A stretch of 53,516 bases of DNA. It comes from Promethearchaeota archaeon. GTDB lineage: Archaea > Asgardarchaeota > Lokiarchaeia > Sigyniarchaeales > SOKP01. The notes beneath the pieces were generated by a model. That model saw only the letters and a list, made by a program, of their open reading frames with translations, was not told the origin of the DNA and made no database searches. Positions 8,408 to 28,417 of the stretch are shown here, one piece after another. Positions within the stretch are counted from its first letter, which is position 1. Each line of letters starts with the position of its first letter. The stretch is from assembly GCA_048938025.1 (NCBI GenBank), contig JBHLMP010000027.1, positions 1-53,516 on the forward strand. Reading direction: 5' to 3'. The position numbers and the translations under genes are program-made.

Positions 8408-8418
8408 GGAGATTTACT

Positions 8419-10606: not shown

Positions 10607-10614
10607 ACTCAAAT

Positions 10615-12643: not shown

Positions 12644-12683
12644 TAATTATTAAAGGCTATAAATAAAAGTAGAAAATTGAATT

Positions 12684-13946
12684 TTATTGTTTAACTAGCA
12701 CTTTTTCAATAATATCTACAGCCCAATCTATTTGTTCTTTAGTTATTATCAAGGGAGGCGCAAATCGAATAATTGTTGCATGAGTATCTTTAGCTAAAAT
12801 ACCATTTTCCATGAGTTCTTCTACAATTTGTCGAGCATTTTCTTCAAATTCGATGGCTATTAATAATCCTTTACCTCTAACTTCTTTAACTGGAATTTTT
12901 GTTCTTTTTTCAGCAATTTCTTTAAGTCTTTTCATAAAATAAGCACCCATCTTTTTAGCTCGTTCCGGTAAATTTTCGCGTAAATGGACATCTAATGATT
13001 TCATACCGACGGCAGATGCTAAAGGGTTCCCTCCAAAAGTACTTCCATGTGTTCCTGGTTTGATTACATCAGGACCGATAATATCTCGAGTCGTGACTAC
13101 AGCAGAAACAGGATAAACTCCACCTCCAAGAGCTTTTCCGAGTAACATCATATCTGGTTTCACATTTTCATGATCACAAGCAAATAATTCTCCTGTCCTT
13201 CCGAAACCCGTCTGAATTTCATCAACCATCATTAATACATTATATTTTGAACAGATTTCTCTCACTTCTTTTAAAAATCCTTCTGGAGGAACTTTTACGC
13301 CAGCTTCTCCTTGGAGGGGTTCAAACAGAAATGCTGCTATTGTTTCTGGACCAATTTCAAGGATTGTATTTTCTAATTCTTCAACATCTCCATATGGGAT
13401 TGTAATAAATCCAGGAGTATAAGGTCCAAAATTACCATAATAACGAGCTGCTGAAATATCTGTGCTAAAACCAACAATTGTAATAGTTCTTCCATGGAAA
13501 TTATCTCTACATACAATGATTTTTGCTTCTCCTTTGGGAATTTTTTTCTTAATATATCCCCATGCTCTTGCAACTTTCAATCCAGTTGAAACTGCTTCAG
13601 TACCCGTGTTCATTGGGAGTGCCATTATTCCTGAATTTTTAGAATCATTTATATGTGGTCCAACTATCTCACACAATTTCTTTAGAAATGGGCCCATTAC
13701 ATCATTATGAAATGCTCTAGAAGATAAAGTTACTTTATCCGCTTGCTCTTTCAAAGCTTTTATAATTTCAGGGTGGCAATGACCAGTATTTTGACTTGAA
13801 TATGCGGATAAACAATCCAAATACTTTTTATCTTCTGGATCATATACCCAAACACCTTCTGCTCTTGATATAACTACGGGGATTGGATGATAATTATGAG
13901 CACAATATTCATTATCAATTTCAATATAATCTTTCGAACTTGGCAT
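12684..13946 (-). CDS. rocD: Ornithine--oxo-acid aminotransferase
   Basis: AHNYHP, DCLSAYS, SRAF, NFHGRT, EPLQGEAG, DEIQTG, LGKALGGG (PLP Lys) and HGSTFGGNPL. Confidence 0.93.
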   Translation of the reverse strand: MPSSKDYIEIDNEYCAHNYHPIPVVISRAEGVWVYDPEDKKYLDCLSAYSSQNTGHCHPEIIKALKEQADKVTLSSRAFHNDVMGPFLKKLCEIVGPHINDSKNSGIMALPMNTGTEAVSTGLKVARAWGYIKKKIPKGEAKIIVCRDNFHGRTITIVGFSTDISAARYYGNFGPYTPGFITIPYGDVEELENTILEIGPETIAAFLFEPLQGEAGVKVPPEGFLKEVREICSKYNVLMMVDEIQTGFGRTGELFACDHENVKPDMMLLGKALGGGVYPVSAVVTTRDIIGPDVIKPGTHGSTFGGNPLASAVGMKSLDVHLRENLPERAKKMGAYFMKRLKEIAEKRTKIPVKEVRGKGLLIAIEFEENARQIVEELMENGILAKDTHATIIRFAPPLIITKEQIDWAVDIIEKVLVKQ

Positions 13947-14552: not shown

Positions 14553-17030
14553 ATGAAAAAAAAATTATTGATTTGTATTTTTTCATTCATGATGGTGCTT
14601 TTAGTTATTCCAATGACACCAGCAACTGCCTGTGGTCACGCTTGGGGTCGAAGAAGAATCACTATAATTAGAGATGACTATGGTGTTCCTCATATATATG
14701 CAAACACAAAAGAAGGATTAGCATTTGGTTGCGGTTATGCAATGGCTCAAGATAGACTTTGGCAAGCAGATTTATATAGGAGAGACTCTTTTGGCAGCCT
14801 TGCCGAATTTGGTTTTAGAACCATTGAGCAAGATTATAACACTAGAAGTATGGGTTATAGTAAAGAAGAATTATTGGAAATATTTGAAAGTTGGGTACCT
14901 TCTAGTCCTAAAGCAAAGCTTAAGGAAATGATGTTAGCTTACGTAGATGGTATAAACCTATATATTTCAGAAGCTTTAGAAGCCTATGCTAATGGCAACC
15001 CTTCTCTTATGCCTATTGAATATCTCCCAGGAGTAATTACTCCCGATGGTCTTCCCCTAGTACCTTTTACCATCGAAGATACCACAGCTATAGTTGTAAT
15101 GATGGCTTGGAGATTTGGCTTATGTGGTGGAAGTGAACTCCAATATGCTGCAGCCCTCCAGGCTTTAAATACCATGTATGATGGAGAAACTGCTTGGGCA
15201 ATTTTTAACGACAATTACCCTCAAGTCGATCCTGGAGCACCAACCACAATACCAAGCTCTGGATGCCATTATCCTGGACCTGGAAGTTGCTGTGCCATAC
15301 CTTCACTTCCAAACAATATTGGTGAGATCTACCAGGAATACGAAACTATCAAGATGGGGCAAGATCAATTATTAGAATCGATGGGTTTACCTACAAAATT
15401 TGGAAGCAATGCATGGATGGTGTCTCCATGGAAATCTGAAACGGGAAATGCAATGCAAGTAGGAGGGCCACAAATGGGGCATTCAACTCCACAGATTGTA
15501 TTGGAGGTAGGGTTACATGGTGCTGGAATTGATGCTGTTGGTATGATGATGCCTCATGCTCCAACCATCTTGATTGGTGTAAGTCAATATGGTGCATGGA
15601 CATCAACCACAGGCTCTTCGGATAATGCTGATACTTACATTGAAGTTTTAAATCCTGACAATCCTTATCAATACCGATATAATGGTGAATGGGTCGATAT
15701 GGAAAAGAGAACAGAGAGAATCTATGGATACAAACAACTCTGGTATGAAGAAAGGGATATTTATCGTACAATACATGGTCCTATTCTTGCTTGGGATTTC
15801 GATAATAACCTTTGTTATACTATGAAAGTACCATTCTATAAGAATGAGTTAGCAGCCGAAGAAGGTTGGTCACTCTTTCAACAAGCAAAAAACATTAAAG
15901 ATATGCAAGATGCTTGTAAACTCGTAGATCTAAGCCATAACTTCTATTGGATAGATAGACGTGGAAATATTGGCTTTTGGCATTCTGGTACTTACCCGAT
16001 TAAACCTACTTATGGATTAGAGGGAAGAATAATTGATGATAGATTTCCTTTATGGGGCACCGGAGAAGAAGAATGGGTTGGTCTAACAGGTTTTAATGAA
16101 ATGCCAAGATGCATAAATCCCACACAAGGGTATCTCGCCAACTGGAACAATAAACCAATAGCGGATTGGCCATATCGAGAGGCAGATTGGGGTGAAGTTC
16201 ATGGCGTTGCATGGATACAGGAACAATTAGCAACAGGGGGTAAAATTTCATTTGAAGAAATGGCAGAAATCAATTTTAATACTGGAGAAAACAATTATGC
16301 TGGAAATGTCTTCCTTGATTTTCTTATAAACGCAGCAAAAACCGATTCTAGTATTCCAACTGAAGTTATAGATGCCCTTGAAGACTGGGATAATCAGTAC
16401 AATGACGTGTTAGATCCGAAATATCCTGATTCTAGCGCAACATATGACGATCCCGGTCTTACAATCTTTAATAGATGGTATAGCAGGATTGATAATGAAG
16501 TATTTGATAATGACCTTCCACCAGGGGTAGGAGGAGGTGCTAGCACACTTCTTCACGTTTTTGATGGAGAAGACTCAAAATTACCTCTTAATTATGATTA
16601 TCTTAATGGAGAAGATCGAGATACTGTAATTGTTCGAGTATTAAAAGATGCTCTTGTTTACTTAGAAACACAATATGGGTCAAGCGATGTATCGGATTGG
16701 CTTACTCCTGTTCGATTAACATATCTTTGGTCGCAAGGAGCTCTACCTACACCAAAAATGCATAGTATGAATCGTGGAACATATAATCACATAGCAGAGA
16801 TGCCAAGGAGAGGAAGATCGTGTTGGTGCTACAAGTCTGACCCGCATGCTGTAAATGTCATTCCTCCTGGGCAAAGTGGATTCATAACTCTAGTAAATGG
16901 TGTGCCTACTATAAGTCCTCATGCATATGATCAACTTGCGTTATATGATACTTGGACATATAAACCTGTACGTTATAGTTATTGGGATAATTGGAAAGTT
17001 CGAGAATCTGTTGAAATTTTATATTATTAG
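14553..17030 (+). CDS. Secreted penicillin acylase family (peptidase S45, Ntn hydrolase) protein
   Basis: Signal peptide MKKK plus a hydrophobic stretch; RDDYGVPHIYA, GYAMAQDRLWQ, GSNAW (nucleophile Ser at the beta-chain start), RTIHGP and ANWNNKP. Confidence 0.92.
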   Translation: MKKKLLICIFSFMMVLLVIPMTPATACGHAWGRRRITIIRDDYGVPHIYANTKEGLAFGCGYAMAQDRLWQADLYRRDSFGSLAEFGFRTIEQDYNTRSMGYSKEELLEIFESWVPSSPKAKLKEMMLAYVDGINLYISEALEAYANGNPSLMPIEYLPGVITPDGLPLVPFTIEDTTAIVVMMAWRFGLCGGSELQYAAALQALNTMYDGETAWAIFNDNYPQVDPGAPTTIPSSGCHYPGPGSCCAIPSLPNNIGEIYQEYETIKMGQDQLLESMGLPTKFGSNAWMVSPWKSETGNAMQVGGPQMGHSTPQIVLEVGLHGAGIDAVGMMMPHAPTILIGVSQYGAWTSTTGSSDNADTYIEVLNPDNPYQYRYNGEWVDMEKRTERIYGYKQLWYEERDIYRTIHGPILAWDFDNNLCYTMKVPFYKNELAAEEGWSLFQQAKNIKDMQDACKLVDLSHNFYWIDRRGNIGFWHSGTYPIKPTYGLEGRIIDDRFPLWGTGEEEWVGLTGFNEMPRCINPTQGYLANWNNKPIADWPYREADWGEVHGVAWIQEQLATGGKISFEEMAEINFNTGENNYAGNVFLDFLINAAKTDSSIPTEVIDALEDWDNQYNDVLDPKYPDSSATYDDPGLTIFNRWYSRIDNEVFDNDLPPGVGGGASTLLHVFDGEDSKLPLNYDYLNGEDRDTVIVRVLKDALVYLETQYGSSDVSDWLTPVRLTYLWSQGALPTPKMHSMNRGTYNHIAEMPRRGRSCWCYKSDPHAVNVIPPGQSGFITLVNGVPTISPHAYDQLALYDTWTYKPVRYSYWDNWKVRESVEILYY

Positions 17031-17048
17031 ATATTCAAATAAATTTTG

Positions 17049-17076
17049 AAAAAAATTAATTAAATTTTTTTTTTTA
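17049..17076 (+). terminator. Oligo-T tract after the acylase gene (archaeal-type terminator candidate)
   Basis: A-run, TTAATTAA, then a T11 run, about 35 nt after the stop and between convergent genes. Confidence 0.35.
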
Positions 17077-17234
17077 ATTATCTGCTTAAATTTTAGTGTA
17101 ATTTCTTCTATAATCACTCTTGGAATATTTAGATTACAAAAGAGATAGGATCTAAGTTATATTTAAAATTTATACCAAAAAAAATGATAATTTCGGATAT
17201 AATTAATCTCATTTATTAGCAATTAGTCTAACCT

Positions 17235-18026
17235 TTATTCTAAACTTTTTCTTCTCATAAGTTCTTTAATAGCAAAAGTTGCTACAATTTCAGCATATGT
17301 ACCTGGCCCAAATCCTGAATCATATCCTAATTCTTTCGCTAATTCATTACTTATTCTGGCACCACCGCAAATCAAAATGATTTGATCTCTTATTCCTTCA
17401 GCTTCTAAAAGTTCTACTAAATTAGTTAAATTTTTCACATGGATATTTTTTTGAGTTACTGTTTGAGATACAAGTAAAACATCAGCTCTTAATTCTATTG
17501 CCTTTTTAACAAATTCTTCATTGGACATTTGACTTCCTAGGTTATAAGTTTTAATCATTTCATATCTTTCTAGACCATAATGTCCAGCATATCCTTTCAT
17601 ATTCATAATAGCGTCAATTCCTACTGTATGCGCATCTGTCCCTGTGGTGGCTCCAAGGATAATAACTTTACGTTTAATGTTTTCTTTTATAAAGTTATTA
17701 ATCTCTTCAACGGACATAGTCTCTACTGTAATAGATTCTGCTTTAATATTAGTATAATCTATAGTGTGAACTATACTCCCATAAATCACAAAAAATGTAA
17801 AACCTTCATCTAAGGGAATATGAAATACTATGGAGGGGTCTTCTAAACCCATTTTCATAGCCAATTGCTTGGCTGCTATGCTTGCTTTTTCTCCATCCAT
17901 AACAGGAAGAGTAAAACTAACCTGTACCTTACCATCATTCATAGTGTCTCCATAAGGTTTGATCCTTTTCAAATCAAGAGTTTTATCAAAATCTTTCTTT
18001 TCTGTTGAGTATAATCCTCCTCTCAT
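17235..18026 (-). CDS. kamE: Lysine 5,6-aminomutase beta subunit (B12-binding)
   Basis: KPYGDTMNDGKVQ, the DAHTVG base-off cobalamin motif, NMKG (PLP Lys) and VSQTVTQKN. Confidence 0.96.
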   Translation of the reverse strand: MRGGLYSTEKKDFDKTLDLKRIKPYGDTMNDGKVQVSFTLPVMDGEKASIAAKQLAMKMGLEDPSIVFHIPLDEGFTFFVIYGSIVHTIDYTNIKAESITVETMSVEEINNFIKENIKRKVIILGATTGTDAHTVGIDAIMNMKGYAGHYGLERYEMIKTYNLGSQMSNEEFVKKAIELRADVLLVSQTVTQKNIHVKNLTNLVELLEAEGIRDQIILICGGARISNELAKELGYDSGFGPGTYAEIVATFAIKELMRRKSLE

Positions 18027-18027
18027 A

Positions 18028-19617
18028 TTAAATCCCTCCCAAAGTTAATTCTTTACTCATAAGTTCTATAAATGGGTTATAATAGATTTTATCCTTCTTA
18101 ATCACACCTTCTAATCCTTTTCCACCATTTATTGGTCTTTTAATATTTGCAAAAATTCCTTTTTCGATTGTTTTAAATAATCCTTCTTTTTCAATCTCTT
18201 TTAATAAATTGAAAGCTTTATTTAATACTTCATTAGCTCTTTTTTCTATTATTCCCCCTTTTTTAAACATAATTTCTTCACTGATAGATTTCAAATTATT
18301 AAAAATGTAACGTGCATTTTCTATTGAAAGTGCTCTATCTGACATAAAGGGAGTATGAATCGCTTCGGTTAACATTCCAAGGAGATGGATTTTTTGGCTC
18401 GTCATGATTGTAATGGTATTGAATAAAGCATCCTGAATATGACCTTTGAATATATTTCCCGTCATATATTTAGTTGGAGGCATATATTTGAGAGGTGCTT
18501 TAGGAAAAATTTCTCGAGTCATTTGAGCTTGTGCGAGCTCATATAAAAATCCATTTTCTAAATCTGGATTCATTTCAAAAGCATGACCTAATCCCATTTG
18601 TTCCTCTTTTAAACCAGTAAAGGAAGCAAATTGCTCATTGATAAATTGAGAAGCAAGTACAGTATGAGCAGCTTCGTAGGCATCTGCTGTTGTTAAATAA
18701 TTATCTTCACCAGTATTGATTATTACACCAGCATATGCATTTATCATTCGAGAAAAATATTGATCGATTATTGTCCTTTTCATGTTTATATCTCGAAATA
18801 GAATTCCGTATAAAGCATCATTTAACATTACATCAAGTCGTTCGAAAGCACCTATAGCAGCAATTTCTGGCATACAAAGTCCAGAACAGTAATTTGTTAA
18901 TCTAATATACCGCCCTAATTCTTCTCCAACTTCATCCAGCGCCTTTCTCATAAGTTTAAAATTCTCCTGGGTTGCATATGTCCCACCATATCCTTCTGTA
19001 GTTGATCCATAAGGTACGTAGTCAAGCAAGCTTTGCCCAGTAGATCTAATCACAGCGATAATATCAGCACCTTGTCTTGCTGCCGCTTGAGCTTGAATAA
19101 TGTCTTCATAGATATTACCAGTGGCTACAATTACGTAAATAAAAGGTCCCTCTTTATCACCATACTTTTTGAGTAATTCTTGTCTTTTTTTTTTGTTTTG
19201 TGAAATTTTAACTAATGTCTCTTGAGCAATAACATTTACAGTGGCTTTAATTTCAGAAGGATCTTTTAATGGAAGCTCTGTTAATTTTAGTTCTTCTTCA
19301 GATACTTTTTCTGCTATTTCTTGGGGAGTCCAATTTGTATGTAATATTGCATTTCCAATAAAAATCGCAGCACCATTTCCAAGTCCATTCCCCTTTCTTA
19401 TATGATCTATAACGATATTTGGTAAAGGCACATCAAATTCATCCACACCATCAATACCAAGCAATCTGCATACAGTTCTCTCAATTGTGGTAGTTGTATG
19501 GCGATCAATAAATTTTTGAGTATCTGAAGCAATATTCCTTGCTGATTTTCTTGCTTTCTCTATTATTGAAAAATCTAAATTTAATTTGCTTTTTTTAAAT
19601 GGTTCTTTCTCGTTCAT
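18028..19617 (-). CDS. kamD: Lysine 5,6-aminomutase alpha subunit
   Basis: YVIVATGNIYED, AVIRSTGQSLLDYVPYG, NYCSGLCMPE, NTGEDNYLTT and KYMPPTK. The ATG at 19617 is preferred over the GTG at 19647. Confidence 0.96.
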   Translation of the reverse strand: MNEKEPFKKSKLNLDFSIIEKARKSARNIASDTQKFIDRHTTTTIERTVCRLLGIDGVDEFDVPLPNIVIDHIRKGNGLGNGAAIFIGNAILHTNWTPQEIAEKVSEEELKLTELPLKDPSEIKATVNVIAQETLVKISQNKKKRQELLKKYGDKEGPFIYVIVATGNIYEDIIQAQAAARQGADIIAVIRSTGQSLLDYVPYGSTTEGYGGTYATQENFKLMRKALDEVGEELGRYIRLTNYCSGLCMPEIAAIGAFERLDVMLNDALYGILFRDINMKRTIIDQYFSRMINAYAGVIINTGEDNYLTTADAYEAAHTVLASQFINEQFASFTGLKEEQMGLGHAFEMNPDLENGFLYELAQAQMTREIFPKAPLKYMPPTKYMTGNIFKGHIQDALFNTITIMTSQKIHLLGMLTEAIHTPFMSDRALSIENARYIFNNLKSISEEIMFKKGGIIEKRANEVLNKAFNLLKEIEKEGLFKTIEKGIFANIKRPINGGKGLEGVIKKDKIYYNPFIELMSKELTLGGI

Positions 19618-19646
19618 TTTATTCACATTTCTTTTAATATAGTACA

Positions 19647-20711
19647 CTAATTATTAGCTCCAAGATCGTAAATTGGAAGCTCTACATTTTCTTTTAATAG
19701 TTTTAAAAATTCTTTCTTATTGAACTCATATCCATTCGGAGAGGTTGGGTTTATTGTAATTGCTATAATATTTATAGGATATAAAACTTTCAAAATTCCA
19801 CCTTTTTTTAGAAACTTTTCCATTGTATTCCTACGTAAAAACAATTTTGTACTATCTTCTACTAAAAAAGTAAGTCCTTTATACCTTTCAGTAGTTTTCA
19901 TTAAGTCTTCTAATAATTTATCGGTAATTGGGCCATTAATTACAACATACTTTGAATTATTGTCTAATTTTTCAACAATTTCCTTAGCTATATCTAAAGA
20001 GGTTAATACATCTAGGATTTCAACTGTGTTATCCAAATTAATAATACCTACTTTTGAATTTTCTATTAAATTTTTTGCGATTTCTGAAATTTCTTCATTT
20101 GTTTCACTTTCCAATGTTAATAATTTAACTGTATGCTTTGTTAAATCAATAACTTCTTTCATGTTTCTTGAAACTGAGGCACCTGTAGAAAGGATCGTAG
20201 CATTAGATATAACAGGAGTTGCATATGATCTCCTATCAAAAGCACCATCAATTAGTATTAAATCACATCCTAAATTTTTTAATTCTAAACATATTTTATA
20301 AAGATATTTGTTTATTGAAGGTCCTGCTAATTCAATTAATCCACTCTCTAATGCTTTTAATATTAAAACTTCACCTAAGGGTGTATTTATTTTAGTATTT
20401 TTTACTAATTCCATTGAAATATTACTATTTTTAAAACTCTCTTTTGCTGTAGCAACATAAATTCCTTTTTCAATAAATATTCGAGGTTTTGGTAGTTGTG
20501 TAATAACATCATATTTCTCTCCATCTCTCCCAATAGATGTAAGGCCCAGTCTATATTTTGATTTAAGTTTTTTTATTAAATAATTTAATGTAGTAGTCTT
20601 GCTAACGTTTTTTGCAAGACCAATTATTGAAATAATTGAATTTTTAGGAATATTTTTAAAAAAATTAGTCATGAAATCCATTTTCCTATCAAAAACTAAT
20701 AACCTATTCAA
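19647..20711 (-). CDS. kamB: KamB-like lysine 5,6-aminomutase reactivase subunit (start may be 20681 or 20672)
   Basis: SIIGLAKNVSKTTTLN (P-loop-like), LTSIGRDGE, TPLG, LIDGAFDR, and position between kamA and kamD. Confidence 0.78.
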   Translation of the reverse strand: MNRLLVFDRKMDFMTNFFKNIPKNSIISIIGLAKNVSKTTTLNYLIKKLKSKYRLGLTSIGRDGEKYDVITQLPKPRIFIEKGIYVATAKESFKNSNISMELVKNTKINTPLGEVLILKALESGLIELAGPSINKYLYKICLELKNLGCDLILIDGAFDRRSYATPVISNATILSTGASVSRNMKEVIDLTKHTVKLLTLESETNEEISEIAKNLIENSKVGIINLDNTVEILDVLTSLDIAKEIVEKLDNNSKYVVINGPITDKLLEDLMKTTERYKGLTFLVEDSTKLFLRRNTMEKFLKKGGILKVLYPINIIAITINPTSPNGYEFNKKEFLKLLKENVELPIYDLGANN

Positions 20712-20750
20712 TAATAACAGAAATAAAACTTAATTATTTAAACTTTAGAA

Positions 20751-21989
20751 TTATTTAGTGAGTTTTTTCCTTCTTAACTTTCTTACCAGATCTTCTGGTT
20801 CAATAGTAGTTTTTTGACCACTTAATAAGGCACTAACACCAATTTGTTTTTCACAGTCTTCACAATGACAATTTGGAGTATAATCTTCTGGTTCCTCATA
20901 AGTTGTAATAACTCCCTCAAAATTTCTCAATACTACGCGTTTGTGTCCTTGAGAAATTGTATAATCTGGCATAACTGGTATTTTTCCACCTCCTCCAGGA
21001 GCATCAACCACAAATGTTGGTACACACAATCCTGAAGTGTGACCTCTTAATCCTTCAATAATTTCGATGCCTTGAGCAACACTTGTCCTAAAATGTGCAA
21101 GTCCTATTGAAAGATCACATTGATAAATATAATAAGGTCTAACTCTTATTTTTACTAATTCCTGTACTAACTTTTTCATCACATGAATACAATCATTTAC
21201 ACCTCTCAATAAAACAGATTGATTACCAAGCGGCATTCCAGCATCGGCAATCATCTCACAAGCTCTTTTTGAATCAACTGTGATTTCATGAGGGTGATTA
21301 AATTGAGTATTAAACCAAATTGGTTGATATTTTTTCAACATTTCACATAATTCTGGTGTAATTCGTTGAGGAACGGTAACTGGGGTTCTTGAACCTATAC
21401 GTATAATTTCCACATGAGGAATTTCCTTCAATTTCCTTAAAATATCCTCCAATTTCTTATCAGATATTAATAGAGCATCTCCACCAGATAAAAGGACATC
21501 CCTAATAGTGGGTGTTTTTTTGATATACTCAATGCAAGCATCTATTTGTGGTTGCGGAGGAGCCATATCATGATGTCCTGCAAACCTTCTTCTTGTACAG
21601 TGTCTGCAATACATCGAACAATTTTCTGTTACTAAAAATAATACTCTATCAGGATAACGATGAGTTAATCCTGGAACAGGAGAATCAATATCTTCACTCA
21701 GTGGATCCTCGAGGTCACTACTTACTCTCTGTAATTCATGAATAGTTGGAATTGCTTGTTTTCTTATGGGATCATAAGGATCATTTGGGTCTATTAAAGA
21801 TAAGTAATAAGGAGTAATAGCCATCCTATACTCTTGTAAGATCCTCGGATCTTCTTCTTCCTTGGTCAATGTTATATATTTTTGAAGTTCTTCTAAAGTT
21901 GTTATTCTATTTTTAACCTGCCAATGCCAATTATTCCAATCCTCATCACTTATATGCCCAAATAACTCCTTTCTTCTATTTACCTTCAT
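20751..21989 (-). CDS. kamA: L-lysine 2,3-aminomutase (radical SAM/PLP)
   Basis: THRYPDR, CSMYCRHCTRRR, LSGGD, GHTSG, DAPGGGGKIP and a C-terminal Zn motif CHCEDC. Confidence 0.97.
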   Translation of the reverse strand: MKVNRRKELFGHISDEDWNNWHWQVKNRITTLEELQKYITLTKEEEDPRILQEYRMAITPYYLSLIDPNDPYDPIRKQAIPTIHELQRVSSDLEDPLSEDIDSPVPGLTHRYPDRVLFLVTENCSMYCRHCTRRRFAGHHDMAPPQPQIDACIEYIKKTPTIRDVLLSGGDALLISDKKLEDILRKLKEIPHVEIIRIGSRTPVTVPQRITPELCEMLKKYQPIWFNTQFNHPHEITVDSKRACEMIADAGMPLGNQSVLLRGVNDCIHVMKKLVQELVKIRVRPYYIYQCDLSIGLAHFRTSVAQGIEIIEGLRGHTSGLCVPTFVVDAPGGGGKIPVMPDYTISQGHKRVVLRNFEGVITTYEEPEDYTPNCHCEDCEKQIGVSALLSGQKTTIEPEDLVRKLRRKKLTK

Positions 21990-22097
21990 TATTATTTTTA
22001 ATAGTAATTAATTTTCTAGCTTAACAAATTATGAAACATACATTTATTCAAATATTTTTCGTAATTTTGAATAAATCTTTAAAATTAAATTATTAAT

Positions 22098-23138
22098 TTA
22101 TTTAATGTATTTCTCTTCAAATATTTTCCGAAGCGTTTGTGATTCTCTTAAAACATCTAAAGCTATATGGGCATGTCCTTTTGTATAACCATTTCCAATT
22201 ATCATTGTCACATCTTTCCCCACTCCTTCAGCTCCTAATGCTGCTTTTGTAAAACTAGTAGCCATAGAAAAGAAGTATACAATCCCACCATCTCTTACAG
22301 GCAATATACTAGACATTTCTGTATTCGGAATACTCAAACAATTAATAGAGATATCTACTTCTTTATCTTCATTAGCTTTTAAGGTTTCTTCTAGTACTTT
22401 TATTGGTTTAAGAACATCAGCAATAATTACTTCATGACAAAAGTTTGTACCCTTAAGATAATTTGCTCGTTCTTTATTCCTTGCTTGGCCGATTACTTTT
22501 CCCATTTTTCCTACCATTTTTTTAGCCATATATGAACACATTAATCCAGATTTTCCAGTTGCTCCTAAAATTAGGACAGAATTCCCTGACTTTACGAGTT
22601 TTTTGATCTGAGCTGGAGCACCAGCAACGTCCAAAATGGCTAATACTAAAGTATCTTCCATATCCTCAGGGATTTTAGCATATATTCCACTTTCAAAAAG
22701 AATTGCTTTGCCTTCAATATCAACGCGATCGATTTCTGGAAAAACATTGAGAATTTTGTCTATTCTAAGAGGAGTTAAAGAAAGTGAAACTAATGAAGCA
22801 ACTTTATCACCAACTTTTAAGTCAATTTTATCCCTCAGATCTTCTCCAATTTGTTCAATTTTACCAATTAGCATTCCACCAGACCCAGTGATCGGATTTT
22901 GCATTTTTCCCCTTTTATTGACAATTTCCAATATTCTTTTCTTTATTTTTTCGATATTGCTATTTGCTTCTTGTTCCAATTGTCTAAAACTAGCTGAATC
23001 AATATTTAAATAATCTACATCGATTAAAATTTCATTATTATAGATTTCCATATCATTGGAGATTTTAACTGCTGGCTGTGGTAAAGCGCCAATCGGTTCA
23101 ATTACTCGGTGAGTACCATATCTATTTCCTTTTTTCAT
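22098..23138 (-). CDS. kdd: L-erythro-3,5-diaminohexanoate dehydrogenase
   Basis: YGTHRVIEP.G.LPQ, LNIDSASF, QNPITGSGGML, SLVSLSLTPL, DVAGAPAQ and FFSMATSFTKAALGAEG. Confidence 0.95.
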   Translation of the reverse strand: MKKGNRYGTHRVIEPIGALPQPAVKISNDMEIYNNEILIDVDYLNIDSASFRQLEQEANSNIEKIKKRILEIVNKRGKMQNPITGSGGMLIGKIEQIGEDLRDKIDLKVGDKVASLVSLSLTPLRIDKILNVFPEIDRVDIEGKAILFESGIYAKIPEDMEDTLVLAILDVAGAPAQIKKLVKSGNSVLILGATGKSGLMCSYMAKKMVGKMGKVIGQARNKERANYLKGTNFCHEVIIADVLKPIKVLEETLKANEDKEVDISINCLSIPNTEMSSILPVRDGGIVYFFSMATSFTKAALGAEGVGKDVTMIIGNGYTKGHAHIALDVLRESQTLRKIFEEKYIK

Positions 23139-23153
23139 ATAATTTACACTTTG

Positions 23154-23990
23154 TTATTCATTTTTATTTAACTCTAATATTTTTCTTGCTTCATCAGGAC
23201 TAGCAATATCTCTTCCTAATTCTCTTGCAATTCTTACAGCTTTTTCAACTAATTCTCCATTTGATTTTGCTAATATGTGTTTAGAGATATAAATATTATC
23301 TTCGAACCCAACTCTTACATGACCACCCATTATCATAGATAAGGTAATCATAGGAAATTCAAATCTACCAATTGCACCAACACAAAATGTAGAATTTTCA
23401 GGAATACTATACACTAAAAAAGTTAAATCTCTTACTGATGCATTTATACCTCCTTTTACTCCTAACATGAAATTAAAGTGCATTGGATCTTTAATATATC
23501 CTTTATCATGTATCCTTAATGCTGTATCTACCATTCCTTTATCAAAGCATTCCAATTCATATTTTATTCCGAGTTTATTCATTTCTTCAACAAAAAAGAG
23601 TATTGTATTCTCTGTATTGACAAAAATTTCATCTCCTCCTAACCAATTCATCGTTCCCATATCCAATGTCGCCATTTCTGGTTTAGGTTCAAGATAAATA
23701 GGTTGAAGTCTTTCCTCATTACTCATACCCACAGCACCTCCAGTAGAAGGTAAAATTATAACATCTGGGCATCGATTTTTTATTTCTTCAATACAGACTC
23801 GAAATCTTTCCTTACTTTGAGTAGGAGTTCCATCATCTTCTCTAACATGTAAATGTATTATGCTAGCCCCAGCTTTGTAAGCTGATTCCGCTTCTTTTCC
23901 AATTTCTTCAATAGTATAAGGTATATTTGGATTATTTCCCTTAATTACTTCGGCGCCACTTATTGCAGCAGTTATAATTAACTTTTCCAT
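23154..23990 (-). CDS. kce: 3-keto-5-aminohexanoate cleavage enzyme
   Basis: IITAA.SGAE, the HLH metal motif (IIHLHVR), STGGAVG and GHVRVGFED; operon context. Confidence 0.93.
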   Translation of the reverse strand: MEKLIITAAISGAEVIKGNNPNIPYTIEEIGKEAESAYKAGASIIHLHVREDDGTPTQSKERFRVCIEEIKNRCPDVIILPSTGGAVGMSNEERLQPIYLEPKPEMATLDMGTMNWLGGDEIFVNTENTILFFVEEMNKLGIKYELECFDKGMVDTALRIHDKGYIKDPMHFNFMLGVKGGINASVRDLTFLVYSIPENSTFCVGAIGRFEFPMITLSMIMGGHVRVGFEDNIYISKHILAKSNGELVEKAVRIARELGRDIASPDEARKILELNKNE

Positions 23991-24007
23991 TATTATTACA
24001 CGCTCCT

Positions 24008-25261
24008 TTATAATAATTTTTTAGTTTCTTTTAGTGATTCTTCAATCATATTAGCTGCATAATCTAATTCTTCCTTTGTATGTCTATAACAAATATAGCC
24101 ATGATGAAATGGTTGTAGGAACACCTTGCGTCTAATTAGTTGCCGATAGAATTCCTCTCTTAATTTTCTATATAGGAAATCAGGATCGGGAGGAAATGTG
24201 ATATAGGGCATCCATGGTTCACCACTATATACACATGGAATACCACTTTCTTCGATAGTTTCCTTTACCCTTTTAGCAAACTGATTCCCTTTCTGATGAA
24301 TATTTGCTAAAACATTTTCACGCTCTAATATTTCAATTGTTTTAAGGGATGCGATCTGAGCAAGACTGTTAGGGAAAAAAGTTGAACTTAAAAATACTTT
24401 TTCTACTAAAATATCCATAAATTCTGATTTACCTACTAGGGTGCTTATAGGGTATCCATTTCCCATTGCTTTACCAAATGCAGCAAGATCAGGAATAACG
24501 CCAAACATTTTTTGTGCTCCTCCCATATCCACTCTAAATCCTGTTCTTATCTCATCATAGATTAATAAAGCATTATATTCGGTGGCTAATTTACGAATAC
24601 TTTCTAAGAAACCGGGTTTTGGCATCTCAACTTCTCGACCACCAGGTGTATGTATTGGATTTATAATAATAGCAGCAACTTCTTCTTTATATTTTTTGAA
24701 TAAATTTTCAGCTTGATCAAGATTATTAAACTCAAATTCATAGAAATCTTCAAATAACTTTTTTGGTATCCCCGCCTCTATTCCATGAACTTCACTGAAA
24801 AGATCATACCACCCATGATATCCACAACTGAGTATCTTTATTTTTTTTGTATATGCTCGTGCAACTCTTATTGCTGCTGTTGTTGCATCAGTACCCATTT
24901 TCATTAATACTAATTTTTCACAACATGGAATTAATTCTTTTAACTTTTTAGCTAAATTATTTTGTACAGGCTGGGTTAGAGACATACAGAAACCCTTTTC
25001 TCTCATTTGTTTAATAACCTCGTTGTCTATTTCTTCTTCTCTATGACCTATAATGATAGGACCATAGGCACAAAGCATATCCACATATTCATTTCCATCA
25101 ACATCAATAACTTTTCCTCCTTTTGCTGTTTTAAAAAATATAGGATATTCACCTTCCACAAAGTTGTAAGGGCGTCTGATTCCTAAAATAGCTCCTGGAA
25201 TCAACTGAAGTGCTTCATTATAGAGTTTAAAGGAATTATCAAGATTTAATTTTTTAGACAA
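24008..25261 (-). CDS. kat: Class III aminotransferase, 3-aminobutyryl-CoA aminotransferase (Kat)-like
   Basis: GIRRPYNFV.GEYPIFF, LCAYGPIIIG, DEIRTGFR, FGKAM (PLP Lys), VFLSSTFFPNS and QPFHHGYICYRHT. First gene of the kce-kdd-kam operon, with a TTG start and GAGGG upstream. Confidence 0.85.
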   Translation of the reverse strand: MSKKLNLDNSFKLYNEALQLIPGAILGIRRPYNFVEGEYPIFFKTAKGGKVIDVDGNEYVDMLCAYGPIIIGHREEEIDNEVIKQMREKGFCMSLTQPVQNNLAKKLKELIPCCEKLVLMKMGTDATTAAIRVARAYTKKIKILSCGYHGWYDLFSEVHGIEAGIPKKLFEDFYEFEFNNLDQAENLFKKYKEEVAAIIINPIHTPGGREVEMPKPGFLESIRKLATEYNALLIYDEIRTGFRVDMGGAQKMFGVIPDLAAFGKAMGNGYPISTLVGKSEFMDILVEKVFLSSTFFPNSLAQIASLKTIEILERENVLANIHQKGNQFAKRVKETIEESGIPCVYSGEPWMPYITFPPDPDFLYRKLREEFYRQLIRRKVFLQPFHHGYICYRHTKEELDYAANMIEESLKETKKLL

Positions 25262-25499
25262 TTTTAATCCCTCGATTATTCTAATTATAGCAATTAATTA
25301 TTTTACATAATTATTGAAGATTTCTAAATCGAGTATTCTTATGAAATATATAATTTTATAATTCGCAAAAATTTTCTTAATTTCACTTTTTCTAATAAAT
25401 CTGTTCTTTTATCTTCGTTATAATATATAATACGAGCATTTTAGTTTTGAAATTATTTTGAAAGAATTAGATTTATTTAACGAATAGGTGGTGTAAATT

Positions 25500-25673
25500 A
25501 TAGGAAAAAAATTAACATGCTCTGTTTGTGGTAGAGAACAAGATGTTCCAACATGTTGTGATAAGTCAATGATAGCAAAAGATGGTTATTTACTTTGCTG
25601 TTGTTCAGAAGACTGTGGTTATCAACCTATTCCTAAATGTTGTGGAAAAACAATGGAATATGTAGATATATGA
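25500..25673 (+). CDS. 57-aa Cys-rich metal-binding protein with a tandem desulforedoxin-like motif; non-canonical ATA start
   Basis: Hand translation: (M)GKKLTCSVCGREQDVPTCCDKSMIAKDGYLLCCCSEDCGYQPIPKCCGKTMEYVDI*. AGGTGGTG Shine-Dalgarno-like site upstream; an in-frame TAA two codons before the ATA excludes an upstream start. Confidence 0.7.
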   Translation: MGKKLTCSVCGREQDVPTCCDKSMIAKDGYLLCCCSEDCGYQPIPKCCGKTMEYVDI

Positions 25674-25710
25674 AATAACAATAAAAAATAAAGTATTTAA
25701 AAAATTATAT

Positions 25711-27291
25711 TTACCACACTAAGTTAGCAATCATATTTTTAGCAGTTTCAGCCTCTCTTTTATTCAAGATCTTTCTGATTCTTAAGTCATTTACAGCATC
25801 TTCAAGTCGTGTATCTAAATTTTTCATCTCCATTAAGTTATTTTTATCACCTTGAGTCTCAACAAGCTCAATCATTGCATTGTCTTTATTCATCAAATCT
25901 CTTAATTTTTGTCTAAAACTCGCTTTAACCTTTGTTCTTACAATTTTACCGTTGTCGATCAGAATTGGTAATACAGGAGCTCTTTCTGTTGTCCTATTTG
26001 TATTAGGATCTAAAAAGTAGAAAATAAAAATTGGAATACCAACTACCACATTTTCAGTTTTAACTTCAATTGTATAATTATTAAAAAAGTTTTGAACATC
26101 TGTCATCTCTTTATCTTTTATTGCTTCAAGGTTAGCTAAACATGATTGCTTTTGTTGCTTTATTAAGGCAACAACGTCTTCAGCTGAAGTTAGATCTTTA
26201 CTTAGACCACTATGTTTTGCATCAATCTGCTTTTGAACTTCGGATATTTTACGTTCCAAATCCCGAATTTTCTGTTGGTGTGTTTTCTCTAGATCAGAGA
26301 TTTCACGTTGCACATTTTTTTTCAATTGTGCAATTTCACTTTTATATCTAGAAAGAGAATTTCCTAAATCATTATATTTTAGATCTAAATCTTTTAAACG
26401 CTCCTCAACTAAGAATAGATCTTTTTTATCAATAGCACTTTTTAATTGATCATTACTATTTTTTATTTGATTTAAATTATTTTGAATCTCTCCCGTCTTA
26501 TCATTAATTTTATATTTACCTGTTTTTACTAACTCTTCTGGTGAGGTTTCGATTTTTTTCTCTTTTTCTTCTCGTAATTCTTTGTTAAGTATCGCCAATT
26601 GCTTTTCTTCTTCACTTGTATCCACTTTAGTCTCTCTGATTTTATCTACTTCTTGACCTCCTCTTTGTATCCATCTCTCACATAACTTTATAATCATATC
26701 CCCATAGCTATCTAGCATTCTTACATCTTTTTGTGAAATAAATTCATGAATTTCTTGAGCAATTTTTGCTTGATTCACACTTTTAGCAATAGGACCTCCT
26801 TCCAGTAAGAAATATGGATTATTAAAAGAACTTATATTATATTGATTTAGGAAAAAATTCTGGAAATATCCAACTTCAGAGGAAGAAAATAACGCTTCTT
26901 GAATTACAGTCCCTCTTTTAAAATTCTTACTTCTTCTTAAATACATATTATTATAAGATTGTAAGGAACTCAAAAATGAGTCTGGATCTGCTCCTTTAAC
27001 TACATTATCAGGTCTAGGAGGTGTCTGCGAGAATTGCCCTACGCTTAATTTCTCCTGTTTGTTGAGTAAATAGCTACATACACAAGCTCTAGTTTCATTT
27101 AAAGGAATTAAACGAACTGGCCAAAAACAGGTTGTTATTTTTGATATTTTTCCCATTTTTTTAAGATTTTTACTATAAATTCCAGTACATTCATTTAAAG
27201 CTAATGCTAATTCATTTAATAACGTAGCTTGGGAGCGAGCGGGGATTACTTCGCCCATATTAATTAAATAAGGAATAACTTTTTGAACCAT
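25711..27291 (-). CDS. Hypothetical protein with a long central coiled coil
   Basis: 526 aa; K/E/Q-rich heptad region at about residues 210-400, flanked by globular N- and C-terminal parts. Confidence 0.8.
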   Translation of the reverse strand: MVQKVIPYLINMGEVIPARSQATLLNELALALNECTGIYSKNLKKMGKISKITTCFWPVRLIPLNETRACVCSYLLNKQEKLSVGQFSQTPPRPDNVVKGADPDSFLSSLQSYNNMYLRRSKNFKRGTVIQEALFSSSEVGYFQNFFLNQYNISSFNNPYFLLEGGPIAKSVNQAKIAQEIHEFISQKDVRMLDSYGDMIIKLCERWIQRGGQEVDKIRETKVDTSEEEKQLAILNKELREEKEKKIETSPEELVKTGKYKINDKTGEIQNNLNQIKNSNDQLKSAIDKKDLFLVEERLKDLDLKYNDLGNSLSRYKSEIAQLKKNVQREISDLEKTHQQKIRDLERKISEVQKQIDAKHSGLSKDLTSAEDVVALIKQQKQSCLANLEAIKDKEMTDVQNFFNNYTIEVKTENVVVGIPIFIFYFLDPNTNRTTERAPVLPILIDNGKIVRTKVKASFRQKLRDLMNKDNAMIELVETQGDKNNLMEMKNLDTRLEDAVNDLRIRKILNKREAETAKNMIANLVW

Positions 27292-27463: not shown

Positions 27464-28417
27464 ATGGAAAAGAAAGAAAAGATAATTCTTATACAAGGTA
27501 TCAGTTTAATAAGTTGCTTTATTTTAATTTCAATAATATTATTGACACCTCTTTTTTTTGATTTCGCTTGGAACGACGCCTTAAGAGATTTATTACCAGA
27601 AACTAAATATTTCTTTCGTTATATTACTGAACTTGGAGGAACTTTTATTTACTTGATTATATTTTTTATCATTTTTTGGGGCATAAATAAAAAAATGGGC
27701 AAAATTTTACTATTTGTTTATGTATCATCAAATTTCGTGAACTATTATGCTAAAGCAATTATTTCTAATGACCGTCCTCCAGAATCTGATTGGCTATTGA
27801 TAGGAGCTTCTCATCTAAGTACACCAAGTGGACATGCTATGAGTTCAACAGTTTTTTGGGGTATGAACTCGATGAAAATTAAAAGATTGGCTATGTGGAT
27901 AATTTCAATTATAATCATTTTTCTGGTCGGATTATCTAGAATTTATCTTGGAGTTCATTGGCTAGGGGATGTTATAACTGGTTGGTTATTTGGTATAATA
28001 ATTTTACTTTTAGTCTGGATTCTTGAAGAACCATTAAATTCTTTTGTATCTAAATATAACGTTATTTACTTTTATTTAGGGTTGGCTATTTTTGGGCTTA
28101 CTGTCATGATATTTACTGAATTTTTTTATGACTCAACTTATAATTTTGGAGCACCGGGAGGACAGATGATTGGATTAGGTCTAGGTTTCGCTCTTGAACA
28201 TAAATATGTAAATTTTGAAATAGAGTTTAATCCTGGAGAAAAATGGAAGCAAATATTAAGAATTTTATTAGGATTACTTTTTATCGGATTATTGTTTTTA
28301 GGTTTAAATTTAATTCTTGATTCTGATATCGTCTGGTTAAAAGCACTTCATTATATCTTGACTTTATTAATAGGAATCTCTCTTTGGCCCTTTATATTTA
28401 AGAAAATTGGTCTTTAA
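27464..28417 (+). CDS. PAP2-family membrane phosphatase
   Basis: KAIISNDRP, PSGH and SRIYLGVHWLGD catalytic motifs; multiple TM helices. Confidence 0.92.
   Translation: MEKKEKIILIQGISLISCFILISIILLTPLFFDFAWNDALRDLLPETKYFFRYITELGGTFIYLIIFFIIFWGINKKMGKILLFVYVSSNFVNYYAKAIISNDRPPESDWLLIGASHLSTPSGHAMSSTVFWGMNSMKIKRLAMWIISIIIIFLVGLSRIYLGVHWLGDVITGWLFGIIILLLVWILEEPLNSFVSKYNVIYFYLGLAIFGLTVMIFTEFFYDSTYNFGAPGGQMIGLGLGFALEHKYVNFEIEFNPGEKWKQILRILLGLLFIGLLFLGLNLILDSDIVWLKALHYILTLLIGISLWPFIFKKIGL

What the first reader, a model, noticed from the sequence alone, without database searches (positions are those of the whole stretch)
17235..25261. Lysine fermentation operon of the rare transaminase (Kat) type in a probable Asgard archaeon
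Seen: kat-kce-kdd-kamA-kamB-kamD-kamE are co-oriented with intact catalytic motifs, and there is no kal (3-aminobutyryl-CoA ammonia lyase) or CoA-transferase in the window. Established: this radical-SAM plus B12 pathway is characterised in anaerobic bacteria (Clostridium, Fusobacterium). The variant in which an acyl-CoA beta-transaminase converts 3-aminobutyryl-CoA to acetoacetyl-CoA was described from Candidatus Cloacimonas acidaminovorans. Inference: an archaeon fermenting lysine to acetoacetate/acetyl-CoA without the crotonyl-CoA step, probably acquired as a block from bacteria. It implies adenosylcobalamin use and a need to dispose of electrons, for example as H2.
Basis: partly seen in the sequence, partly recalled or inferred. 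Interest (0 to 1): 0.85.

Follow-up and report, generated by a model that had tools for sequence, protein, structure and literature searches.

The report
Kat-type lysine fermentation operon, Asgard archaeon
An uncultured Asgard archaeon carries a complete lysine-fermenting gene set of bacterial type that uses a transaminase instead of the usual ammonia lyase, and its close relatives have swapped these two genes at the same spot several times.

Summary
Window 17235-25261 (- strand) holds seven co-oriented genes, kat-kce-kdd-kamA-kamB-kamD-kamE. Six pass curated NCBIfam cut-offs, and five match solved enzymes of the same name. The seventh is a HemL-like class III aminotransferase. It fails every HemL model. 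In a tree it sits among Kat proteins of lysine operons, near Cloacimonadota and Bacteroidota, the two phyla whose Kat was assayed.

Kal gives no match in the 96.7%-complete genome. The contig is archaeal and not chimeric: the locus is syntenic in about 50 Asgard genomes.

The pathway is known. A lysine route seems already drawn for the cultured Asgard archaeon MK-D1 (Imachi 2020, figure legend only). So this is a new member of a known kind, and "rare" overstates it.

- Among 301 Asgard genomes the pathway occurs in one order only.
- There 32 genomes carry kat and 17 carry kal, never both intact. The state changes at least 9 times on the operon tree, and kat remnants lie beside kal.
- The window's family has also lost kamC and the atoAD CoA-transferase.

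The parts
24008..25261 (-). kat: HemL-like class III aminotransferase, inferred 3-aminobutyryl-CoA:2-oxoglutarate transaminase (TTG start, 417 aa)
   Evidence: PF00202 185 bits. All HemL models score below their cut-offs, for example TIGR00713 271/527. Lies inside the Kat clade of lysine operons. 60% identical to a Ca. Cloacimonas sp. homologue and 63% to a Bacteroidetes operon homologue. The PLP-lysine motif aligns with GSAM 3bs8.
23154..23990 (-). [quoted passage not shown]
   Evidence: NF052387 411.7 bits against a cut-off of 382. PDB 2y7d 255.8 bits over the full length.
22098..23138 (-). kdd: L-erythro-3,5-diaminohexanoate dehydrogenase
   Evidence: NF052381 269 bits against a cut-off of 200. 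PDB 7dl3_A 371.1 bits over residues 3-345.
20751..21989 (-). kamA: radical-SAM/PLP lysine 2,3-aminomutase
   Evidence: TIGR03820 608.6 bits against a cut-off of 525.4. PDB 2a5h 676.7 bits with the CxxxCxxC block identical.
19647..20711 (-). kamB: reactivase subunit of lysine 5,6-aminomutase. The model match begins at residue 27, so the true start is probably downstream of the TTG listed.
   Evidence: NF052386 405.2 bits against a cut-off of 210. No kamC follows it.
18028..19647 (-). [quoted passage not shown]
   Evidence: NF052384 937.5 bits against a cut-off of 600. PDB 8t0v_A 900.6 bits.
17235..18026 (-). [quoted passage not shown]
   Evidence: NF052385 394.6 bits against a cut-off of 280. 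PDB 8t0v_C 418.5 bits and 1xrs_B 412 bits, with DAHTVG kept.
23991..25541 (.). Replaceable cassette: kat plus about 280 bp upstream. In the colinear contig of a same-genus genome (G171:C14 19801-20535) this stretch is replaced by kal plus its own upstream DNA.
   Evidence: The blastn alignment of the window with G171:C14 breaks at the kce start and resumes at window 25542. The same sharp limit at the kce start is seen in the pairs G252/G177 and G040/G147.

Best explanation
This is a working seven-gene operon for the anaerobic 3,5-diaminohexanoate route of lysine fermentation, in its transaminase (Kat) form. It lies in the chromosome of an Asgard archaeon.

Steps shown by family membership:
- KamA turns L-lysine into beta-lysine.
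- KamDE, with adenosylcobalamin and PLP, turns beta-lysine into 3,5-diaminohexanoate. KamB is its helper.
- Kdd oxidises and deaminates 3,5-diaminohexanoate to 3-keto-5-aminohexanoate.
- Kce, with acetyl-CoA, cleaves that into acetoacetate and 3-aminobutyryl-CoA.

Inferred step: Kat passes the amino group of 3-aminobutyryl-CoA to 2-oxoglutarate and gives acetoacetyl-CoA plus glutamate. One of four glutamate dehydrogenases regenerates 2-oxoglutarate. Thiolases split acetoacetyl-CoA. ADP-forming acyl-CoA synthetases make ATP.

Acetoacetate is probably activated by an acetoacetyl-CoA synthetase, because no atoAD is found. The two extra reducing equivalents leave as H2 or formate, or are used to reduce acetoacetyl-CoA to butyrate.

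The operon core reached an ancestor of one Asgard order once, from bacteria. Since then its first gene has been exchanged repeatedly between kat and kal.
For: Six genes pass curated equivalog cut-offs. Five match solved enzymes of the same name at 256-901 bits.

Kat:
- The family is sharply set apart. The best 50%-cluster representative scores 512 bits at 54% identity and JGI names it 3-aminobutanoyl-CoA transaminase. The next full-length representative scores 322 bits.
- In a 118-row tree the window's protein lies in a starred clade of 39 rows: 37 Asgard rows plus 2 bacterial rows from lysine operons. That clade lies inside a 64-row clade (support 92) with Cloacimonadota and Bacteroidota Kats.
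- It is apart from a 29-row Desulfobacterota-type clade in which 0 of 29 loci have lysine genes nearby.

Not HemL: 271 bits against a cut-off of 527, and no hemB (PF00490) in the genome.

Kal: 0 matches in the genome.

The rest of the route is present in the genome: 4 GDH, 15 matches to the thiolase model, 3 ACD, a CobA adenosyltransferase and 2 hydrogenase large-subunit-like ORFs. An acetoacetyl-CoA synthetase-like ORF cut by a contig end scores 509.8 bits over 2/3 of the model.

Archaeal context:
- GC is 0.24-0.35 across the contig.
- Two Ras-family GTPases lie on the same contig.
- The locus order is conserved in about 50 Asgard loci, including single-contig genomes.

Origin: in a concatenated Kce+Kdd+KamA+KamD+KamE tree of 60 rows, all 43 Asgard rows form one clade (99*) nested among bacterial operons of the same gene order.
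Against: - No enzyme here has been assayed, and no curated model exists for Kat. I could not obtain the two assayed Kat sequences themselves, only congeners (L112 Ca. Cloacimonas sp., Bacteroidota loci).
- Perret 2011 (PMC3149608, section 9) warns that a 60%-identical homologue occurs in a bacterium without lysine genes. Identity alone therefore does not fix the substrate.
- No RNA evidence is at hand.
- The ATPase KamC and the CoA-transferase AtoAD, both present in the bacterial operons I examined, are missing. Part of the route therefore rests on untested substitutes.
- The bin has 5.14% contamination.
- The root of the operon tree is not inferred, so the direction of transfer rests on the wider bacterial spread.
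Confidence: 0.85

Rival explanations
1. The aminotransferase is not a 3-aminobutyryl-CoA transaminase. It would act on another amine, such as another beta-aminoacyl-CoA or glutamate-1-semialdehyde. 3-Aminobutyryl-CoA would then be handled by an unrecognised enzyme.
For: The best curated and solved matches are GSAM (277 bits, 210 bits). Kat-family members occur without lysine genes in 29 of 29 Desulfobacterota-type loci and in NaphS2 (PMC3149608, section 9). A second HemL-like paralogue exists on contig C45.
Against: All HemL models score below their cut-offs, and there is no hemB. The gene starts 17 bp upstream of kce. It occupies the exact slot that kal holds in relatives, and the two never occur intact together: 0 of 51 Kce-positive genomes. 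It groups with operon-linked Kats and not with the Desulfobacterota clade.
Confidence: 0.07
2. The operon is as described, but electrons are not released as H2. Acetoacetyl-CoA is reduced through 3-hydroxybutyryl-CoA and crotonyl-CoA to butyrate. The products would then match the classical pathway, and Kat changes only the nitrogen chemistry.
For: There is an Hbd-like gene in the window at 34315-35136. The genome has 15 enoyl-CoA hydratases, 14 matches to the acyl-CoA dehydrogenase model and two EtfAB pairs next to acyl-CoA dehydrogenases. Perret 2011, section 8, proposes the same option. The Imachi 2020 figure legend lists butyryl-CoA.
Against: Nothing excludes it. Hydrogenase-like genes and ACDs are equally present. 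The two outlets are not mutually exclusive.
Confidence: 0.35
3. kamA serves to make the osmolyte N-epsilon-acetyl-beta-lysine, as in methanogens, and not fermentation.
For: The best KamA model is named lys_2_3_AblA (TIGR03820).
Against: kamA sits inside an operon with KamDE, Kdd and Kce, which consume beta-lysine. No acetyltransferase gene lies in the operon.
Confidence: 0.02
4. The operon is a bacterial fragment wrongly joined or binned with an archaeal contig.
For: The genes are of bacterial type (65-73% identical to bacterial operons). The bin has 5.14% contamination.
Against: The same order, native archaeal flanks - operon - orf526 - SDR, recurs in about 50 Asgard loci. These include a 4.36-Mb single-contig genome and contigs of 0.5-0.9 Mb. 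A same-genus contig is colinear over about 40 kb. GC is even. Unitigs of other studies bridge the junctions at 16928-17348 and 25299-26233.
Confidence: 0.01

Closest known systems
Kat-variant lysine fermentation of 'Candidatus Cloacimonas acidaminovorans' and a digester Bacteroidetes genome (Perret et al. 2011, PMC3149608; sections 5, 8 and 9 read)
   Same: A HemL-like class III aminotransferase stands at the kal position next to kce. Kal is absent from the genome. There is no tetrapyrrole pathway. KamA, KamDE, Kdd and Kce are the same. The gene order kat-kce-kdd-kamA-kamB-kamD-kamE is that of the bacterial operons found here (L098, L110, L126, L083).
   Different: The host is an archaeon. Kat is only about 60-63% identical to Cloacimonas and Bacteroidota congeners. 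There is no atoAD CoA-transferase in the operon or the genome. There is no kamC. Nothing has been assayed.
Canonical Kal-type cluster kal-kce-(atoDA)-kdd-kamA-kamB-kamC-kamD-kamE of Clostridia and Fusobacteria. An example held here is L176 in a genome of the class of L126. The Fusobacterium example comes from the PMC3149608 Fig. 2 legend.
   Same: The five core enzymes are 66-72% identical to the window's, and the order is the same.
   Different: The window has kat where kal stands. 17 of 301 sampled Asgard genomes do have this kal form at the same locus.
Lysine catabolism drawn for the cultured Asgard archaeon MK-D1 (Imachi et al. 2020, PMC7015854; passages and figure legends seen, figure and supplements not seen)
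   Same: An Asgard archaeon that degrades amino acids syntrophically. The Fig. 2a legend lists acetoacetate, 'gamma-amino-butyryl-CoA' and butyryl-CoA, the intermediates of this route.
   Different: The main text never says lysine, aminomutase or aminobutyryl outside that legend. Whether Kat or Kal was assigned is not visible to me.
Glutamate-1-semialdehyde 2,1-aminomutase (HemL/GSAM)
   Same: The fold type is the same. It gives the best solved match (3bs8, 210 bits), with the PLP-lysine region conserved.
   Different: It fails all HemL cut-offs. No hemB is found in the genome. The operon context is lysine fermentation.

Membership tests
Lysine fermentation via 3,5-diaminohexanoate (core pathway) | Lysine 2,3-aminomutase KamA (radical SAM, PLP) | tested here: met
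   TIGR03820 608.6 bits against 525.4. 2a5h 676.7 bits, with the CxxxCxxC block and GGGGK conserved.
Lysine fermentation via 3,5-diaminohexanoate (core pathway) | B12/PLP lysine 5,6-aminomutase KamD + KamE | tested here: met
   NF052384 937.5 against 600 and NF052385 394.6 against 280. 8t0v_A 900.6 bits and 8t0v_C 418.5 bits.
Lysine fermentation via 3,5-diaminohexanoate (core pathway) | 3,5-diaminohexanoate dehydrogenase Kdd | tested here: met
   NF052381 269 against 200. 7dl3_A 371.1 bits.
Lysine fermentation via 3,5-diaminohexanoate (core pathway) | [quoted passage not shown] | tested here: met
   NF052387 411.7 against 382. 2y7d 255.8 bits.
Lysine fermentation via 3,5-diaminohexanoate (core pathway) | Reactivase pair KamB + KamC beside KamDE | tested here: not met
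   KamB is present (405.2 against 210). KamC is missing: the only genome match is a 982-aa MutS-like ORF at 216 bits, below the cut-off of 300. KamC passes its cut-off in 1 of 82 genomes of the window's family, against 8 of 14 in the sister family.
Kat variant (Perret 2011) | Kat-family aminotransferase at the kal position, grouping with assayed Kat lineages | tested here: met
   The gene starts 17 bp upstream of kce. Tree placement is with operon-linked Kats next to Cloacimonadota and Bacteroidota. The assayed sequences themselves were not available; congeners were used.
Kat variant (Perret 2011) | Kal absent from the genome | tested here: met
   NF052388 gives 0 matches in a bin that is 96.69% complete.
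Kat variant (Perret 2011) | Transaminase activity on 3-aminobutyryl-CoA with 2-oxoglutarate | not testable with these tools
   This needs an enzyme assay.
Kat variant (Perret 2011) | AtoA/AtoD CoA-transferase to activate acetoacetate | tested here: not met
   tblastn with AtoD and AtoA of L126 finds nothing in the genome at E <= 1e-3. Only two weak PF01144 ORFs exist (57.6 and 37.1 bits), and neither matches an NCBIfam family. A likely substitute is an acetoacetyl-CoA synthetase-like ORF at 509.8 bits, cut by a contig end.
Kat variant (Perret 2011) | Glutamate dehydrogenase to regenerate 2-oxoglutarate | tested here: met
   Four PF00208 ORFs at 241-267 bits.
HemL / glutamate-1-semialdehyde aminomutase | Score over the HemL equivalog cut-off | tested here: not met
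   TIGR00713 271.4 against 527.3. All other HemL models are also below their cut-offs.
HemL / glutamate-1-semialdehyde aminomutase | A tetrapyrrole pathway in the genome (hemB) | tested here: not met
   PF00490 gives 0 matches, while the control rings in 11 of 14 known genomes.
Canonical Kal-type lysine fermentation | [quoted passage not shown] | tested here: not met
   0 matches in the genome. Kal is present at this slot in 17 of 301 sampled Asgard genomes.

The most novel reading that the evidence does not exclude
kat and kal are alternative cassettes at one chromosomal site, exchanged by recombination within an Asgard order. Which one a strain carries would set how it ferments lysine.
- With kat: all carbon goes to acetate, with two extra reducing equivalents that must leave as H2 or formate. 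This pays only with a hydrogen-consuming partner.
- With kal: a self-balanced acetate plus butyrate fermentation.

The switch would then be a heritable dial for the degree of syntrophic dependence in the closest archaeal relatives of eukaryotes.

Shown: mutual exclusion, at least 9 state changes, sharp limits, and kat remnants beside kal. Inferred: the physiological meaning and selection.
Probability: 0.35. Interest if true: 0.7.

Novelty: new member of a known kind. Interest (0 to 1): 0.45.

Why it matters
Asgard archaea are the nearest known relatives of the eukaryotic host lineage. Models of eukaryote origin lean on their hydrogen-releasing, partner-dependent breakdown of amino acids. This locus gives a concrete, nearly complete and testable route for one amino acid.

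It also shows three things:
- The route came from bacteria, once.
- It is confined to one order among the genomes sampled.
- It has since been trimmed (no atoAD, no kamC) and repeatedly re-fitted at its nitrogen-removing step.

The kat/kal alternation among close relatives is a natural experiment. It can test whether the electron balance of a fermentation is tuned to syntrophy.

For enzymology, it offers archaeal versions of Kat and of a KamC-less 5,6-aminomutase system.

Tried and rejected
- **RNA evidence.** No RNA holder was listed among 20 runs. Laying 4 DNA runs gave only short unitigs, with no contig spanning the locus.
- **RNA genes.** Rfam gave 0 matches in the window and no tRNA was found. 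There is no riboswitch lead.
- **Whole-operon replacement.** I asked whether the whole operon, and not just the first gene, was swapped between the window and G171. The operon is only modestly more divergent than its flanks: nucleotide identity is 79-83% against mostly 84-92% in the flanks, with two stretches next to the SDR genes at 72-76%. I do not claim operon replacement.
- **orf526 as a KamC substitute.** It has no ATPase family match beyond a weak hit at E 2e-4. It is a coiled-coil archaeal hypothetical protein. Rejected.
- **Other searches with no match.** PduO-type adenosyltransferase gave 0 matches; CobA was found instead. AtoAD by tblastn gave nothing.
- **Kal tree.** The tree (24 rows, 127 columns) is too poorly resolved to say whether Asgard kal entered once. 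Asgard rows form one side of a branch at only 67/74 support.
- **Literature.**
  - 0 papers hold Asgard + lysine + 3-aminobutyryl-CoA.
  - 0 papers hold Asgard + 'lysine fermentation'.
  - The enzyme's names occur in 3 papers, none on Asgard.
  - Broader listings showed no Asgard lysine paper among the rows listed. These are not clean negatives.
  - Three recent Asgard papers hold none of 'lysine', 'aminomutase' or a third pathway word ('fermentation', 'aminobutyryl').
  - Supplements, notably Supplementary Table 4 of Imachi 2020, are closed and may name the genes.
- **Not used.** Structure prediction, fold search and complex prediction: no claim here depends on them.


Full report
**What is there.** The window is one whole contig (C16, 53,516 bp) of a 3.52-Mb bin with 88 contigs, 96.69% complete and 5.14% contaminated. 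In order of transcription they are a class III aminotransferase (24008-25261), kce, kdd, kamA, kamB, kamD and kamE.

Six of them pass NCBIfam equivalog cut-offs: KamE 394.6/280, KamD 937.5/600, KamB 405.2/210, KamA 608.6/525.4, Kdd 269/200, Kce 411.7/382. Five match solved enzymes of the same name: 2a5h 676.7 bits, 8t0v_A 900.6, 8t0v_C 418.5, 7dl3_A 371.1 and 2y7d 255.8. The alignments keep the radical-SAM cysteine block and GGGGK of KamA, DAHTVG and NMKGYAGHYG of KamE, and HLH and GFEDNI of Kce. Which residue does what is recalled, not taken from a call.

**The aminotransferase.** Its best curated matches are HemL models, all far below their cut-offs (TIGR00713 271/527). The best solved match is GSAM 3bs8 at 210 bits, with the PLP-lysine stretch aligned. 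The genome has no hemB (0 matches for PF00490). This is the same argument Perret et al. used for Cloacimonas (PMC3149608, section 5).

- Against 1.84 billion cluster representatives, one full-length protein stands out: P0121, 54% identity and 512 bits, named 3-aminobutanoyl-CoA transaminase by JGI. The next full-length representative scores 322 bits.
- A scan of one genome per species found 553 stretches that encode relatives. The best 80 were kept.
- Among the 73 bacterial loci of those 80, 23 have lysine-fermentation genes beside the gene, several in the window's order kat-kce-kdd-kamA-kamB-kamD-kamE.
- I built a 118-row tree: 110 Kat-family rows with at least 90% coverage plus 8 outgroup representatives, by the quick method. 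All 37 Asgard rows plus two bacterial operon-linked rows form a starred clade. It lies inside a 64-row clade (support 92) with 14 Cloacimonadota rows and the Bacteroidota operon rows, the two phyla whose Kat was assayed.
- A separate 29-row Desulfobacterota-type clade has no lysine genes nearby in any locus.
- The window's protein is 60% identical to a Ca. Cloacimonas sp. homologue and 63% to a Bacteroidetes operon homologue.

I could not obtain the assayed sequences themselves.

**Kal and the rest of the route.**
- Kal (NF052388) has no match in the genome.
- Four bacterial Kat-bearing genomes also lack it.
- The genome encodes four glutamate dehydrogenases and gives 15 matches to the thiolase model.
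- It has three ADP-forming acyl-CoA synthetase homologues, a CobA-type adenosyltransferase and two NiFe-hydrogenase large-subunit-like ORFs.
- For a butyrate outlet there is an Hbd-like gene in the window, 15 enoyl-CoA hydratases, 14 matches to the acyl-CoA dehydrogenase model and two EtfAB pairs.

From established biochemistry (Perret 2011, section 8; inference here), the Kat route yields two reducing equivalents per lysine, one from Kdd and one from GDH. They must leave as H2 or formate, or be spent on butyrate.

**What is missing.** Bacterial operons of both types carry the 3-oxoacid CoA-transferase subunits A and B between kce and kdd, and KamC between kamB and kamD (L126, L176).

- The window has neither. 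tblastn with those AtoD and AtoA proteins finds nothing in the genome.
- The only PF01144 ORFs are weak.
- A likely substitute is an acetoacetyl-CoA synthetase-like ORF cut by a contig end: 509.8 bits over model positions 4-423 of 652, against a cut-off of 520.9. Two PF13336 CoA-transferase-family ORFs also exist.
- KamC passes its cut-off in 1 of 82 genomes of the window's family (f1, G000 included) but in 8 of 14 of the sister family f2. An f2 operon has kamA-kamB-kamC-kamD, with KamC at 484 bits.

How the B12 enzyme is reactivated without the ATPase is unexplained.

**Whose DNA it is.**
- GC is even, 0.24-0.35 per 2 kb.
- The contig carries two tandem Ras-family GTPases at 173 and 166 bits.
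- The 120 closest Kat clusters (73-94% identical) that carry names are called Promethearchaeota, Lokiarchaeota and other Asgard groups.
- Fifty further Asgard loci show the same order: ornithine aminotransferase - kamE-kamD-kamB-kamA-kdd-kce - kat or kal - orf526 - SDR. They include a 4.36-Mb single-contig genome and contigs of 0.5-0.9 Mb.
- A same-genus contig (G171:C14) is colinear with the window over about 40 kb.
- Unitigs from other studies bridge both operon borders.

A chimera is excluded for practical purposes.

**Distribution.** In a sample of 301 Asgard genomes:
- Kce passes its cut-off in 51.
- KamD gives a match at E <= 1e-100 in 46.
- Kat (E <= 1e-100) occurs in 33.
- Kal passes its cut-off in 17.

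All of these genomes lie in two families of one order: KamD is found in 0 of the 225 genomes of the other 28 families.

Set arithmetic on the handle lists gives Kal with Kce in 17 of 17 genomes, Kat with Kce in 31 of 33, and Kal with Kat in 0. Three Kce genomes have neither gene listed. In one of them (G125) kat is cut by the contig end, which makes 32 kat genomes against 17 kal genomes. In another (G300) the upstream side is missing. NCBI labels of some close homologues (Thor-, Heimdall-, Odin-, Hodarchaeota) do not fit this restriction, and I take them as submitter labels.

**Origin and the kat/kal switch.** I built a concatenated Kce+Kdd+KamA+KamD+KamE tree of 60 rows by the quick method. 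Ten Asgard genome loci with fewer than two of the genes at 80% coverage were left out, as were bacterial loci with fewer than three.

- All 43 Asgard rows form one clade (99*). The nearest rows are a Clostridia-class kal-type operon and a Clostridiaceae kat-type operon. Riflebacteria and Bacteroidota operons come next. This fits one entry from bacteria. The root is not inferred.
- Within the clade the kat/kal state needs at least 9 changes among 41 labelled rows (28 kat, 13 kal).
- Holding the 13 kal rows together costs 1308 log-likelihood units (AU p = 2e-51).
- All four deep-branching f2 rows are kat.
- In three close pairs the DNA alignment breaks exactly at the kce start codon and resumes upstream of the cassette. 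The pairs are window/G171, G252/G177 (89.8% and 93.3% identical on the two sides) and G040/G147.
- Two kal loci keep the last 43-49 codons of kat between kal and kce (G273 at 88% identity, G246 at 72%). In G252 the alignment resumes 41 nt inside the kat frame of G177. None of the 31 complete or near-complete kat loci shows a kal remnant.

So at least some replacements went from kat to kal. I did not test that note.

**Comparison with what is known.** The pathway and the Kat variant are established (Perret 2011).

- A putative Kat and Kal without the core pathway were noted in Thaumarchaeota (PMC8397731, passages seen).
- For Asgard archaea, the Fig. 2a legend of Imachi 2020 lists acetoacetate, an aminobutyryl-CoA and butyryl-CoA. 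The lysine route was therefore apparently drawn for MK-D1, but the text holds neither 'lysine' nor 'aminomutase'. I could not see the figure or the supplements.
- My searches found no paper that joins Asgard with this enzyme or pathway by name.

I rate the given finding as a new member of a known kind. Three points appear not to be in print as far as these searches reach: the restriction to one order, the loss of atoAD and kamC, and the repeated kat/kal exchange. They raise the interest to moderate.

Noticed in passing
window 25497-25673 (+): A 58-codon cysteine-rich frame (12 Cys) lies between orf526 and kat, divergent to kat. In the window it has no ATG, GTG or TTG at its head. It is conserved as a protein (57-77% identical) in 28 of the 50 other Asgard loci, several of which begin MSNKL. 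Two tandem paralogues lie on own contig C9. The upstream limit of the kat/kal cassette falls at its 5' end.
   Followed up: partly
window 25711-27291 (-): orf526 is a coiled-coil protein with no Pfam family. It is the conserved upstream neighbour of kat or kal in most loci of the window's family. The Atlas places it with archaeal hypothetical proteins.
   Followed up: partly
L037:9373-9906 (G171), and the ~770-bp kdd-kce gap in many relatives: In G171 a 177-aa flavodoxin gene sits between kdd and kce. In G132 a methyltransferase fills the same gap. The window has only 15 bp there, so it holds the most compact form of the operon.
   Followed up: partly
window 14553-17030 (+) and 27464-28417 (+): A penicillin-amidase-family gene lies between the ornithine aminotransferase and kamE. 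It is also present in G156, but it is absent from the colinear G171 contig. The PAP2 gene after orf526 is also absent from G171.
   Followed up: no
window 3386-13946: The left flank is rich in amino-acid catabolism genes. They are flavodoxin, aldehyde:ferredoxin oxidoreductase, an Fe-S flavoprotein, a DAO-family oxidase, ornithine carbamoyltransferase, an amino-acid (carbamate-type) kinase, and ornithine aminotransferase (TIGR01885 533.8 against 378.4).
   Followed up: no
window 42326-42859 and 42881-43393 (+): Two tandem Ras-family small GTPases score 173 and 166 bits. Both are conserved in the colinear G171 contig.
   Followed up: partly
G000:C45:13713-15122 (-) (L031:6714-8123): A second HemL-like class III aminotransferase (469 aa) scores the same as kat on the hemL model (271.9 bits). 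It lies in an unrelated context with a hydrolase, Sir2 and an ion exchanger.
   Followed up: partly
G000:C51:53581-55464 and G455:C424:1917-3908: Two matches to the acetoacetyl-CoA synthetase model each contain one in-frame TAA. I did not look into whether these are two genes, a frameshift or something else.
   Followed up: no
protein clusters P0019, P0027, P0029, P0069: Kat homologues 77-84% identical to the window's are labelled Thor-, Odin-, Heimdall- and Hodarchaeota by NCBI. In the GTDB-based sample, Kat, KamD and Kce above its cut-off occur in only one order. The labels are probably those of the submitters.
   Followed up: no
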